From an uncultured delta proteobacterium (lineage in GTDB: Bacteria > Desulfobacterota > Binatia > DP-6), in assembly GCA_963815115.1 (NCBI GenBank), contig CAWFFN010000009.1, forward strand, positions 320,001-384,000: DNA of 64,000 nt, written 5' to 3'. The notes under the pieces were generated by a model. The model saw only the letters and a program-made list of their open reading frames with translations. It had not been told where the DNA came from and made no database searches. This document shows, piece by piece, positions 21,941 through 22,275 of the stretch (position 1 is the stretch's first letter; each line of letters opens with the position of its first letter). Made by a program: the position numbers and the translations under genes.

Positions 21941-22055
21941 TGTTGGCGTGTGCCCACTGTGGGCTGATAGGCACGACGAAGGGCCTTTTGCCGCGGAGGC
22001 TTACAGAACGCCCCATCCCGGACCTTCGCCGCATTTTCGCCCGCTCCGTAACAAG

Positions 22056-22275
22056 TTCCCACCGACCCCGGGGGTCGACCCGCGATGGAGGAAACTGGTA
22101 CGGCGCCGCTGCCGGCACCGAGGTCGAGCAATGTCTGGTGCGCGAAGCCCGCTAACAAGTTGGACCCGACGTCCCGTGCGCACCCGTGATTGTCGCCACG
22201 GACCGCGCGGTCCGCGAGCACGCTTGGTAGACTGCTGCCCCCAGGGACGTCACGCCGGCAGAACGGGAGGACGTG
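22056..22275 (+). ncRNA. putative IS110 bridge RNA (also in copies 2 and 3)
   Basis: Two stem-enclosed internal loops carrying TAACAAG (22153-22159) and CTTGGTAG (22223-22230), which match the two junctions of the element; RNA boundaries are inferred. Confidence 0.7.

What the first reader, a model, noticed from the sequence alone, without database searches (positions are those of the whole stretch)
21964..22275. IS110 bridge RNA whose first guide matches the end of a dispersed 90-bp module
Seen: the non-coding end folds into two internal loops. Loop 1 (stem GGTGCGC 22137-22143 / GCGCACC 22178-22184) contains TAACAAG, identical to the module end plus AG (CCGTAACA-AG, 22046-22055). Loop 2 (CACG/CGTG outer stem, CTGCTG/CGGCAG inner stem) contains CTTGGTAG, identical to the IS right end, and opposite it GGGAG, which can pair with the TTCCC that follows the AG at 22056. 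Both candidate guides follow CGC and end in AG. Established: IS110/IS621 bridge RNAs have a target loop and a donor loop that read sites sharing a 2-nt core. Inference: the true IS runs TTCCC...CTTGGT between AG cores, its donor junction is CTTGGT-AG-TTCCC, and its programmed target is the module end. All three copies sit at that site. Caveats: I cannot assign a convincing right-target guide (right flanks are GCGG, AAGC, CTGA), and the loop-1 match extends to GCCCGCT...AACAAGTT, so it could be an internal duplication.
Basis: partly seen in the sequence, partly recalled or inferred. Interest (0 to 1): 0.85.

Follow-up and report, generated by a model that had tools for sequence, protein, structure and literature searches.

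The report
IS110 element with bridge RNA
This is a copy of an RNA-guided IS110-family insertion sequence whose upstream non-coding RNA carries short guides matching its own right end and its insertion site, the end of a small genus-specific repeat; it is a further natural example of a system described in 2024, folded differently from the textbook case.

Summary
The main reading holds. The mobile unit is TTCCC...CTTGGT (22056-23532) between AG cores. Its upstream end encodes a conserved RNA carrying TAACAAG (22153-22159, same letters as the target end) and TTGGTAG (22224-22230, same letters as the IS right end).

Across 36 homologous elements with different guides, an element's own target-guide 7-mer lies at its left junction in 29 of 36 (2 hits in 1260 cross pairs). 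Its own donor-guide 7-mer lies at its right end in 21 of 36 (10 in 1260). A same-genus relative has TAACGAG in both guide and flank. A soil-metagenome contig from a ~90% relative joins ...CTTGGTAG to TTCCCACC.

The proposed fold is not supported: 53% of cells paired, no better than shuffles. Covariation supports a three-way junction instead (92% paired, 0 of 500 shuffles). The proposed right donor guide GGGAG lies in the Shine-Dalgarno position. The two bases after the target guide copy the first two IS bases (35 of 35 at the second). A weak right-target guide lies 5' of the inner hairpin, an order reported for IS1111-type seekRNAs.

New member of a known kind; expression is untested.

The parts
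21963..22055 (+). Target repeat ('module', type 1), ending CTCCGTAACA + AG core (22054-22055). Not part of the IS.
   Evidence: About 19 module-like copies in the genome end at ...CCGTAACA(A/G)(G/C) followed by unrelated sequence. The repeat was found in 3 of 4 same-genus genomes and 0 of 36 other relatives searched.
22056..23534 (+). IS110-family element, 1479 bp counting one AG core (right AG 23533-23534). Identical copy at 32772-34250. Copy with 8 single-base deletions and 2 substitutions at 46130-47600.
   Evidence: The left boundary is fixed by a 93%-identical left-end fragment at G000:C8:54333(-), whose similarity starts only at TCCGTAACAAG, and by homologs.
22064..22076 (+). 5' palindromic hairpin GACCC-CGG-GGGTC near the left end.
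   Evidence: Read from the sequence. A comparable palindrome is visible by eye in most homologs. Covariation was not tested.
22091..22095 (+). GAAAC, the left half of a sub-terminal inverted repeat. Its partner is GTTAC at 23523-23527 (one mismatch in this element).
   Evidence: In 28 of 33 elements a 5-mer complementary to the right-end sequence sits at this alignment column. Paired variants GCTTC/GAAGC, ATTTC/GAAAT and TTTTC/GAAAA were read by eye.
22099..22104 (+). TACGGC, at the position of a -10-like TANNNT hexamer just 5' of the RNA's closing helix (inferred promoter element).
   Evidence: TANNNT starts 12-17 nt before helix P1 in 28 of 39 aligned left ends. This element itself lacks the final T. 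Inference only.
22109..22116 (+). P1 5' strand CTGCCGGC. It pairs with 22254-22261 and closes the three-way junction.
   Evidence: 7 of 8 pairs show changes on both sides.
22122..22125 (+). P2 5' strand GGTC. It pairs with GACC 22163-22166 and closes the target-binding arm.
   Evidence: 98% of cells paired, nearly invariant, one pair with a change on both sides.
22130..22135 (+). Position of the family's candidate right target guide (5' strand of the target loop). Not convincing in this element.
   Evidence: Across 35 groups, RNA positions 4-6 before UGGUG complement the first three bases right of the core at 1.45 of 3 positions, against a null of 0.88 +/- 0.11; 0 of 5000 permutations reach this. 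The window element is off register.
22136..22151 (+). P3 inner hairpin of the target arm (UGGUGC ... GCCCG).
   Evidence: 100% of cells paired. One pair has a change on both sides, in 3 related sequences.
22153..22161 (+). Left target guide TAACA + AG core (22153-22159) plus TT (22160-22161), which equals the first two IS bases.
22168..22174 (+). Helix X 5' strand GACGUCC. It pairs with GGACGUC 22245-22251 and closes the donor-binding arm.
   Evidence: 100% of cells paired, 5 of 7 pairs with changes on both sides, 17 such sequences at one pair.
22191..22222 (+). Inner stems of the donor arm: UGU.GC 22191-22196 with GC.ACG 22218-22222, and hairpin 22199-22204 : 22209-22214.
   Evidence: The pair at columns 216:263 is U-A in 21 sequences and C-G in 17. 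The hairpin pairs covary.
22224..22230 (+). Left donor guide TTGGT + AG core. It has the same letters as the right end at 23528-23534.
22265..22271 (+).
   Evidence: The aligned homologs mostly carry a GGAG-type purine run shortly before the ATG (by eye). No complementarity signal to the IS start.
22279..23505 (+). Transposase (bridge recombinase) gene, 408 aa.
   Evidence: PF01548 and PF02371. NF033542 at 257.8 bits. A profile of 10 relatives matches IS621 transposase 8wt6 at E 4.3e-19. D12 and E62 are invariant in all 10; D98 is kept in at least 90% and D101, S298 in all 10.
23523..23534 (+). Right end: GTTAC (inverted-repeat half), TTGGT (left donor), AG core.
   Evidence: All 8 right ends and right-end fragments in the genome end in ...CTTGGTAG, followed by unrelated flanks.
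47600..47690 (+). Second module directly abutting the right end of copy 3 (junction CTTGGTAG|CTGATAGG, with the G shared).
   Evidence: The same junction is in a contig of run X1.

Best explanation
The window holds three copies (the genome four) of a 1479-bp IS110-family insertion sequence. It runs from TTCCC to CTTGGT and is flanked on both sides by the core dinucleotide AG.

Its 223-nt upstream non-coding end encodes a bridge RNA of about 153 nt (22109-22261). The RNA folds as a three-way junction with a closing helix P1, a target-binding arm and a donor-binding arm. Each arm has the same build: a closing stem, a 5' loop strand, an inner hairpin ending GCCCG or GCRCG, one spacer base, and then a 5-nt guide followed by AG.

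- The target arm carries TAACA-AG, which has the letters of the top strand at the end of the 91-bp module, so it would pair with the bottom strand (left target guide).
- The donor arm carries TTGGT-AG, which has the letters of the IS right end (left donor guide).
- The two bases after the target guide copy the first two bases of the IS. The RNA therefore reads the finished left junction over 9 nt.
- A short right target guide (CU plus about 3 nt) lies on the 5' strand of the target loop in the family, but is not recognisable in this element.
- No right donor guide was found.

The DEDD/Ser recombinase presumably joins the circle junction CTTGGT-AG-TTCCC to ...TAACA-AG sites, which in this genome are mostly module ends.

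Shown here: boundaries, conservation and covariation of the fold, and covariation of both left guides with the junctions. Inferred: transcription, RNA ends, protein binding, strand polarity of pairing, and the circle.
For: - Family: PF01548 and PF02371 pass their cut-offs, NF033542 scores 257.8 bits against 140. A profile of 10 relatives matches IS621 transposase at E 4.3e-19, and the catalytic positions are conserved in those relatives.
- Boundaries: four full copies and eight right ends all end CTTGGTAG, then diverge. Solo modules end at CCGTAACA(A/G)(G/C). A 93% left-end fragment beside a strongly diverged module shares only TCCGTAACAAG with the other flanks.
- Guides: own LTG 7-mer at the left junction in 29 of 36 elements against 2 of 1260 cross pairs. 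Own LDG 7-mer at the right end in 21 of 36 against 10 of 1260. Junction table.
- Natural reprogramming: the 86%-identical element of a same-genus genome has TAACGAG in the RNA and ...CCGTAACGAG at its left junction.
- Paralog: a 59% paralog in this genome has CGATAAG in the RNA and GGATAAG at both of its copies' left junctions.
- Fold: 91.6% of 1345 cells paired, 23 of 35 pairs with changes on both sides, 0 of 500 shuffles as high, slid controls 30-42%.
- Guide extension: equals the first two IS bases in 32 of 35 and 35 of 35 groups, against cross values of 0.81 and 0.65.
- Right target guide: 1.45 of 3 positions complementary against 0.88 +/- 0.11, 0 of 5000 permutations.
- Donor junction: one contig of run X2 (another study, ~90% relative, depth 2) reads ...GAGTGACTTGGTAG then TTCCCACCGAT.
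- Head-to-tail copies with a single AG between them occur in other genomes (L018, L020, L028, L056).
Against: - No RNA evidence. All runs are kept as contigs. One contig in an RNA-library run (X17) covers 22045-22234 of a relative but does not show transcription, a start or an end.
- The single-sequence fold is not more stable than shuffles.
- No Rfam family matches this RNA. The only hit was an unrelated family on the other strand at E 0.29.
- No consensus sigma-70 promoter was found.
- No right donor guide was found, and no convincing right target guide exists in this element. The eight right flanks differ.
- Junctions for the covariation tables were located with the guides themselves allowing one mismatch, so those identities are partly circular. 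Only the permutation test is free of this.
- The X2 junction is a single low-depth contig and could be a tandem copy rather than a circle.
- All four occupied modules are 100% identical and share a base (CGCCCGC) that four of five solo type-1 modules lack. None of the seven other modules with a perfect TAACAAG end is occupied. The simple target model does not explain this.
Confidence: 0.85

Rival explanations
1. The mobile unit is the whole 1572-bp repeat. The 91-bp module travels with the IS, either as its real left end or as flank captured by half-match (left-donor-only) recombination. Its circle junction would be CTTGGTAG-CTGATAGG.
For: - All four IS-linked modules are 100% identical over 91 bp and share the base C in CGCCCGC. 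Four of five solo type-1 modules have A there. Seven other modules with a perfect TAACAAG end are empty.
- Copy 3 is followed at once by another module, giving exactly CTTGGTAG|CTGATAGG. The same joint is in a contig of run X1.
- Modules are preceded by RG in most copies (by eye).
- Circles with only one canonical donor boundary are reported for expanded IS110 loci (preprint 10.64898/2026.08.14.744561; abstract and section 9 read).
Against: - In 29 of 36 homologous elements the left boundary lies directly after the sequence that matches the guide.
- The 93% left-end fragment on contig C8 and the 86% and 91% relatives sit beside modules too diverged to align (or aligning over only ~20 nt) while the IS parts align throughout. 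The module part does not share the history of the IS part.
- Modules exist without this IS in this genome and in same-genus genomes.
- The X1 joint is what the assembled genome already shows at copy 3, so it is not independent evidence.
- The X2 contig shows the short junction.
Confidence: 0.1
2. The RNA has the IS621-like layout the reader drew: two successive stem-loops with internal loops, GGTGCGC/GCGCACC closing the target loop, and the left guide on the 5' side of that loop.
For: GGTGC and GCACC are complementary in 34-39 of 39 sequences. IS621 has the order stem, LTG, stem-loop, RTG (PMC11208158, passages read).
Against: - That helix never covaries.
- It crosses helix X, which has 5 covarying pairs.
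- It uses the same 5' strand as hairpin P3, which has one change on both sides (C-G to U-A in 3 sequences) while GCACC stays unchanged.
- The other two stems pair in 37% and 32% of cells.
- The whole structure does no better than shuffles (302 of 500).
Confidence: 0.04
3. The upstream end is only a leader or regulatory region. The matches of its loops to the ends are leftovers of an internal duplication of end sequences.
For: The match in this element runs GCCCGCT...AACAAGTT. No RNA has been shown.
Against: - GCCCG is an invariant scaffold in all 39 aligned left ends, while the next 5 nt vary and track each element's own flank.
- A duplication would not keep tracking 36 different targets.
- It would not change A to G in step with the flank.
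Confidence: 0.01

Closest known systems
IS621 and its bridge RNA (IS110 group; Durrant et al. 2024, PMC11208160, sections 5, 6, 7, 12 and legends read; Hiraizumi et al. 2024, PMC11208158, passages read)
   Same: - DEDD/Ser recombinase.
- Long non-coding left end encoding a structured RNA with two pseudo-symmetric guide-bearing domains.
- Left guides carry the top-strand letters of the left target and left donor and include a shared 2-nt core.
- No target duplication beyond the core.
- Targets a repeated element.
   Different: - Transposase of 408 aa against about 326; it matches IS621 only through a profile.
- Core AG instead of CT.
- The two arms hang on a closing helix as a three-way junction rather than following each other.
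- Left guides lie 3' of the inner hairpins, and the candidate right target guide lies 5' (reverse of IS621).
- Left guides are 7 nt rather than 8-9 nt.
- The 2-nt extension sits after the left target guide and reads the IS start. IS621's handshake bases sit after the right guides.
- The -10-like element lies about 45 nt inside the left end, so a promoter rebuilt across the circle junction is unlikely (inference).
IS1111-group seekRNAs (Siddiquee et al. 2024, PMC11187229, passages read)
   Same: The order of target-matching segments, with the top-strand complement 5' of the bottom-strand match. A sub-terminal inverted repeat is present.
   Different: - The non-coding region here is upstream of the transposase gene, not downstream.
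- The inverted repeat is only 5-6 bp and asymmetric (7 nt from the right end, about 35 nt from the left). IS1111 repeats are 11-13 bp with 7- and 3-bp terminal extensions.
- The transposase length fits the 395-455 aa subgroup that includes IS110 itself, as given in that paper.
REP-targeting IS110-family elements, such as ISPpu9 and ISPpu10 in Pseudomonas putida (PMC12288879 and preprint 10.64898/2026.03.19.712850; search listings and abstracts only)
   Same: Orientation-specific insertion at one position of a short dispersed intergenic repeat. Several copies per genome.
   Different: The repeat here is a 91-95 bp genus-restricted element with no detected conserved hairpin. It is clustered in two gene-poor, IS-rich islands, and in at least two cases it starts where a gene is cut off.

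Membership tests
IS110 family insertion sequence | [quoted passage not shown] | tested here: met
   PF01548 E 1.2e-24 (87.3 bits, cut-off 29). PF02371 E 1.8e-21 (76.8 bits, cut-off 21.3). NF033542 257.8 bits against 140.
IS110 family insertion sequence | Catalytic D-E-D-D and Ser residues | tested here: met
   In the profile alignment to IS621 (8wt6), ESTG, KSDVSDA and the Ser of PRQDASAG fall on the IS621 stretches holding E60, D102/D105 and S241; chain numbering is offset by 2 (my count). E62, D101 and S298 are invariant, and D98 is kept in at least 90%, of 10 relatives. D12 (GLDVHK) is invariant but lies outside the aligned stretch.
IS110 family insertion sequence | No terminal inverted repeats; the same short core at both junctions; site-specific, orientation-specific insertion | tested here: met
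   AG precedes TTCCC and ends CTTGGTAG in all four copies. All four copies lie after CTCCGTAACA in the same orientation.
IS110 family insertion sequence | Circular intermediate with abutted ends | tested here: inconclusive
   One 324-nt contig of depth 2 from a ~90% relative joins the right end to the left end with a single AG. It could be a circle or a tandem copy. No such junction is in the assembled genome (0 hits).
IS110 group (as opposed to IS1111 group) | Long left non-coding end, short right end | tested here: met
   Left end 223 nt (22056-22278), right end 29 nt (23506-23534).
Bridge RNA (IS621 type) | Conserved structured RNA in the non-coding end, supported by covariation | tested here: met
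   39 distinct left ends: 91.6% of cells paired, 23 of 35 pairs with double changes, 0 of 500 shuffles as high.
Bridge RNA (IS621 type) | Left target guide and left donor guide that track the element's own target and right end and include the core | tested here: met
   29 of 36 and 21 of 36 exact own matches, against 2 and 10 hits in 1260 cross pairs. Matched A-to-G change in a close relative.
Bridge RNA (IS621 type) | Right target guide complementary to the top strand right of the core | tested here: inconclusive
   There is a family-wide diagonal signal (1.45 of 3 against 0.88 +/- 0.11; 0 of 5000), but only about half of the positions pair. In this element the register is off and the eight right flanks differ.
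Bridge RNA (IS621 type) | Right donor guide complementary to the start of the IS | tested here: not met
No region of the RNA shows self-versus-cross complementarity to the IS start. Because the IS start is semi-conserved, a conserved guide without covariation cannot be excluded.
Bridge RNA (IS621 type) | Layout: two consecutive stem-loops, left guide 5' and right guide 3' of the inner hairpin | tested here: not met
   Covariation gives a three-way junction with the left guides 3' of the inner hairpins. The IS621-like drawing fails.
Bridge RNA (IS621 type) | RNA is expressed and bound by the recombinase | not testable with these tools
   Only metagenome contigs are held. The contig from RNA-library run X17 is not proof of transcription.
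IS1111 group | Sub-terminal inverted repeats of 11-13 bp and a non-coding region downstream of the transposase gene | tested here: not met
   The repeat is 5-6 bp (GTTTC/GAAAC type; mismatched in this element) and asymmetric. The non-coding region is upstream. The defining features are taken from PMC11187229 (passages read).

The most novel reading that the evidence does not exclude
The 91-bp modules may be more than passive targets. They could be non-autonomous partners of this IS.

Most copies are preceded by RG and end in ...TAACA-AG, the sequence that the IS's target loop reads. The occupied ones form one identical sub-lineage. One module sits directly after an IS right end as CTTGGT-AG-CTGATAGG.

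On this reading the IS110 recombinase moves or amplifies modules (alone or with the IS) through half-match recombination. It then deletes the DNA next to them, which would explain why modules start at truncated genes. The result would be a two-part mobile system in which the IS spreads its own landing pads.
Probability: 0.1. Interest if true: 0.7.

Novelty: new member of a known kind. Interest (0 to 1): 0.35.

Why it matters
Bridge-RNA recombinases are being developed as programmable genome-writing tools, and nearly all mechanistic work rests on IS621 and close relatives.

This family comes from GC-rich soil bacteria. The relatives found are named Myxococcota/'delta proteobacterium', Acidobacteriota, Planctomycetota, Burkholderiales and Gemmatimonadota in their record titles. 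It offers three things:
- A compact scaffold of about 153 nt with a different topology.
- A set of 36 naturally reprogrammed guide pairs.
- A target guide that also reads the first two bases of the element.

The order of target-matching segments resembles that reported for IS1111-type seekRNAs, while the RNA sits upstream as in the IS110 type. This bears on how the two groups are related.

For the genome itself, the element explains part of the scrambling of two IS-rich islands. None of this changes the known principle.

Tried and rejected
- **Single-sequence folding** of 22056-22285 and 21963-22285: not more stable than shuffles and unlike the conserved fold. Not used.
- **Rfam**: only an unrelated weak hit on the other strand.
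- **Promoter and terminator scan**: nothing found.
- **Plasmid collection, megablast**: no match.
- **phmmer of the transposase against PDB**: no match. A profile was needed.
- **Search for a right donor guide.** I tried mutual information, k-mer complementarity, longest common substrings and position matrices. There was no signal. A hint that the tail after the donor guide repeats the IS start (TTCG/TCCG, by eye) was not significant (z 1.7).
- **Similarity between the 5' strand of the target loop and the right end** (by eye, L016 family): not general (z 0.5).
- **Module as integron attC site, Tn3-type inverted repeat or structured RNA.** The recalled consensus motifs do not fit. RNAalifold on 20 copies found no convincing conserved structure.
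- **Module as a MITE.** The imperfect terminal inverted repeat (GGAGCG..GAA) was seen by eye only. The sigma-54 activator gene does not continue after the module. A search for its missing 3' part gave one doubtful candidate far away. Left open.
- **A common gene next to modules:** none found by tblastx of 3-kb flanks.
- **Parts of the stretch without contig cover** in runs X1-X3 and X17 are not evidence of anything.
- **Extended target specificity.** 5 of 12 TCCGTAACAAG sites are occupied and none of about 12 other TAACAAG sites (my subtraction of the guide copies). This is suggestive only.
- **Literature.** The search 'bridge RNA' with 'three-way junction' returned 5 papers, 4 listed, none about this. 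I cannot say the layout is unpublished. The supplementary tables and data of Durrant 2024 and Siddiquee 2024, with predicted bridge RNAs for ISfinder elements, were closed and may already show it.
- **Notebook error.** An early note gave wrong coordinates for P1; this was corrected.
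Full report
**What is at the coordinates**

The window is 67% G+C and lies at G000:C9:320001-384000. A 1572-bp repeat occurs three times in it: 21963-23534, 32679-34250 (identical) and 46037-47600. 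The third copy differs by 8 single-base deletions and 2 substitutions, which may be assembly errors. A fourth copy is at C9:428602-430173.

Each repeat holds a 408-aa open frame (22279-23505). It matches PF01548 and PF02371 above their cut-offs and NCBIfam NF033542 'IS110 family RNA-guided transposase' at 257.8 bits against a cut-off of 140. phmmer found nothing in the PDB. A profile of ten relatives matches IS621 transposase (8wt6, E 4.3e-19) and ISCro4 transposase. E62, D101 and S298 are invariant in the ten relatives and D98 is kept in at least 90%. These fall on the IS621 stretches that hold E60, D102/D105 and S241. D12 in GLDVHK is invariant but lies outside the aligned stretch.

**Boundaries**

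The first 91-93 bp of the repeat is a separate dispersed element. About 19 module-like copies lie in the genome, in two sub-types, clustered at C5:1.376-1.419 Mb and C9:0.318-0.430 Mb. They end at ...CTCCGTAACA(A/G)(G/C) and are followed by unrelated sequence.

All eight right ends or right-end fragments end in ...CTTGGTAG and then diverge.

A 93%-identical left-end fragment at C8:54333(-) sits beside a module-like sequence too diverged to align. Similarity with the window copies begins only at TCCGTAACAAG.

So the IS is TTCCC (22056) ... The left end is 223 nt and the right end 29 nt.

**Related elements**

A scan of one genome per species found 391 relatives of the transposase. 78 loci were kept, at 58-91% identity. 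By their record titles they come from Myxococcota/'delta proteobacterium', Acidobacteriota (Vicinamibacterales), Planctomycetota, Burkholderiales, Gemmatimonadota and other MAGs. Two copies of a 59% paralog lie in this genome.

The last 240 nt before the ATG fell into 43 distinct sequences. I aligned 39 of them (A1). I left out L055, which has a broken left end, and three near-duplicates (L035, L050, L065). L011 and L037 had already dropped out because too little upstream DNA was held.

The alignment shows an invariant scaffold: GAGGUCGG ... UGGUGC ... AGCCCG-N-[5 nt]-AG-U-UGGACC ... GAGCACC ... GAGCRCG-N-[5 nt]-AG-A ... CACGCC. There are two hypervariable 5-nt blocks, each followed by an invariant AG. 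In the window these blocks are TAACA (22153-22157) and TTGGT (22224-22228).

**Do the guides track the sites?**

I parsed both guides in 78 of 81 elements, which gave 36 distinct guide pairs.
- An element's own target-guide 7-mer occurs exactly in the 100-nt window around its expected left boundary in 29 of 36 representatives. Guides of other elements do so in 2 of 1260 cross pairs.
- The own donor-guide 7-mer occurs within 60 nt after the stop codon in 21 of 36, against 10 of 1260.

Most of the remaining elements match with one mismatch.

Three single cases add to this:
- The 86% relative in a same-genus genome has TAACGAG in the RNA and ...TTCCGTAACGAG at its left junction.
- The 91% relative has TAACAAG and ...GCTCCGTAACAAG.
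- The in-genome paralog has CGATAAG in the RNA and GGATAAG at both copies' left junctions.

Both guides carry the letters of the top strand, so they would pair with the bottom strand. That is how the left guides of IS621 are described (PMC11208160 section 7).

**The match that runs on into TT**

Across 35 groups, the first and second RNA bases after the guide's AG equal the first and second bases of the IS in 32 of 35 and 35 of 35. Cross values are 0.81 and 0.65. Of the nine elements whose IS does not begin with TT, six match at both bases and all nine at the second.

The RNA therefore reads left target + core + first two IS bases, which is the finished left junction. This resembles the handshake bases of IS621 in idea (PMC11208158, passages). 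It differs in that it sits after the left target guide, not after the right guides.

**The fold**

RNAalifold and my own column-pair scan agree on the helices:
- P1: 22109-22116 with 22254-22261.
- P2: 22122-22125 with 22163-22166.
- Hairpin P3: 22136-22141 with 22147-22151.
- Helix X: 22168-22174 with 22245-22251.
- Inner stems of the donor arm: 22191-22196 with 22218-22222, and 22199-22204 with 22209-22214.

Counted on A1, 91.6% of 1345 cells pair and 23 of 35 pairs have changes on both sides. No shuffle out of 500 reaches any of the five measures, and slid partners give 30-42%. Helix X alone has 5 of 7 covarying pairs.

This is a three-way junction: a closing helix plus a target arm (P2) and a donor arm (X). 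The two arms are built alike, and the guide follows the inner hairpin.

The stem CTGCTG/CGGCAG uses the 3' strand of P1. CACG/CGTG pairs in 37% of cells. GGTGC:GCACC is conserved but never covaries, would cross X, and competes with P3.

GGGAG (22266-22270) lies where the homologs mostly have a GGAG-type ribosome-binding site (by eye).

**Right guides**

No part of the RNA shows self-versus-cross complementarity to the start of the IS. A right donor guide is therefore not found. Because the IS start is semi-conserved (TT-NNN-CAC), a conserved guide cannot be excluded.

For the target there is a weak signal. The 5' strand of the target loop was more complementary to core + right flank than in cross pairs (z 3.3). 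A position matrix then showed a diagonal:
- The bases 3 and 2 before UGGUG are C and U in 63% and 37% of groups, complementing the core.
- Bases 4, 5 and 6 complement the first three flank bases in 54%, 49% and 42%, against 32%, 27% and 27% in cross pairs.
- The sum is 1.45 of 3 against 0.88 +/- 0.11, and 0 of 5000 permutations reach it.

So the family seems to have a short right target guide 5' of the inner hairpin. That order is the reverse of IS621 (stem, LTG, stem-loop, RTG; PMC11208158). It is the order reported for IS1111-type seekRNAs, where the top-strand complement comes first (PMC11187229, passages).

In the window element the register is off (GUC|UGGUGC) and the eight right flanks differ.

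**Other conserved features**

- GAAAC at 22091-22095 is complementary to GTTTC immediately left of the 5 variable right-end bases in 28 of 33 elements. Paired variants occur (GCTTC/GAAGC, ATTTC/GAAAT, TTTTC/GAAAA; by eye). This is a short, asymmetric sub-terminal inverted repeat. In the window element it is mismatched (GTTAC).
- A TANNNT hexamer starts 12-17 nt before P1 in 28 of 39 left ends. The window has TACGGC. I infer a promoter inside the left end that would start the RNA at P1. This is not shown, and the consensus scan found nothing.

**Sequencing runs**

The stretch is held in soil-metagenome runs, all kept as contigs. I laid four of them.
- X1, probably the source sample, has a contig joining 23533 to 21963. 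This is the copy 3/module junction already in the genome.
- X2 comes from another study and holds a relative about 90% alike. It has one 324-nt contig of depth 2 that reads ...GAGTGACTTGGTAG followed by TTCCCACCGAT and on into the left end.
- Such pairs, with a single AG between the copies, are assembled in other genomes (L018, L020, L028, L056).
- A contig of an RNA-library run (X17) covers 22045-22234 of a relative with another left flank. It shows neither transcription nor ends.

**The module**

- It is restricted to the genus in the genomes searched: 3 of 4 same-genus genomes, 0 of 36 others.
- It has no Rfam match and no convincing conserved fold.
- It starts exactly where a sigma-54 activator gene breaks off (...NVFPIEV|module at 2799/2800).
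- Another copy starts where an ANT(2'')-family gene stops at profile position 86 of 149.
- In the finding's copy it follows a large serine recombinase gene.
- TAACAAG occurs 29 times in the genome. Of 12 TCCGTAACAAG sites, 5 are occupied.

**What stays unexplained**

The four occupied modules are 100% identical. They share a C that four of five solo type-1 modules lack, and the fifth solo copy, which has the C, ends AACAGG. Seven other modules with a perfect end are empty. Copy 3 is also followed directly by a module.

This keeps alive the rival reading that module and IS can move together. Recent preprints report half-match circles at expanded IS110 loci (10.64898/2026.08.14.744561, abstract and section 9; 10.64898/2026.08.31.748434, abstract). 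Against it, the module parts beside related IS copies are far more diverged than the IS parts.

**Comparison and verdict**

It works like the IS621 bridge system, and it meets the family definitions for the protein, the ends, the structured RNA and the two left guides. It does not meet the IS621 layout, and I could not find a right donor guide.

It shares its guide order and a short sub-terminal repeat with the IS1111 type. However, its RNA sits upstream, and its transposase is in the 395-455 aa range of the subgroup around IS110 itself (PMC11187229).

I file it as a new member of a known kind. The different topology may or may not already be in the closed supplements of the 2024 papers. My one text search for it found nothing relevant.

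Noticed in passing
G000:C8:220367-221900 (locus L079) and C5:1395000-1396600 (locus L080, minus strand): Two 98.5%-identical copies of a 59% paralogous IS110 element with its own guides (CGATAAG and GTCCCAG). Its right flank resembles the first half of a module in inverted orientation, so it appears to be inserted inside a diverged module-like repeat.
   Followed up: partly
window 854-2799 (+), with the module at 2800-2892: A sigma-54-dependent activator gene (PAS domains plus PF00158) breaks off at ...NVFPIEV, exactly where a module begins. It has no PPLRER motif or HTH domain afterwards.
   Followed up: partly
window 37234-37620 (-), with the module at 37256-37345 (-): An aminoglycoside-2''-adenylyltransferase-family ORF (PF10706) matches only profile positions 2-86 of 149. 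It ends where a module begins.
   Followed up: no
window 20343-21960 (+): A large serine recombinase gene (Resolvase, Recombinase and zinc-ribbon domains) lies directly upstream of the finding's module. Its reading frame runs on into the module, so its true end is unclear.
   Followed up: no
window 46037-47690: Copy 3 differs from copy 1 by eight single-base deletions and two substitutions, and its transposase frame is broken. The deletions could be assembly errors. It is followed at once by a second, 100%-identical module that ends AACAGG.
   Followed up: partly
loci L018, L020, L028 (Vicinamibacterales MAGs), L056, L013: Head-to-tail IS110 copies with a single AG between the right end and the next left end. 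In L013 the next copy belongs to a related element with another target guide.
   Followed up: no
loci L058-L077 (Planctomycetota MAG): Eleven copies of a relative with guide GAACCAG sit in an 18-nt tandem repeat (GGTACTCCGAACCAG...). One locus carries the guide match at five successive 18-nt steps.
   Followed up: no
G000:C8:808611-808880: A right-end fragment (92% identity) is followed after the AG by CCCACCGCCCTTCCGTAACGAC. That sequence resembles the end of the diverged module found left of the C8:54333 fragment.
   Followed up: no
locus L092 (G001:C15:273715-277914): A 50% relative keeps the same RNA scaffold (UGGUGC..AGCCCG, GAGCACGC). By eye, its guide blocks and junctions (AGAGAAATG; CAGGGGAA) do not end in AG, which suggests a different core.
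   Followed up: no
window 29042-30322 (+): An ORF with a retropepsin-like aspartyl protease domain (PF13975 and PF13650) lies in the same island.
   Followed up: no
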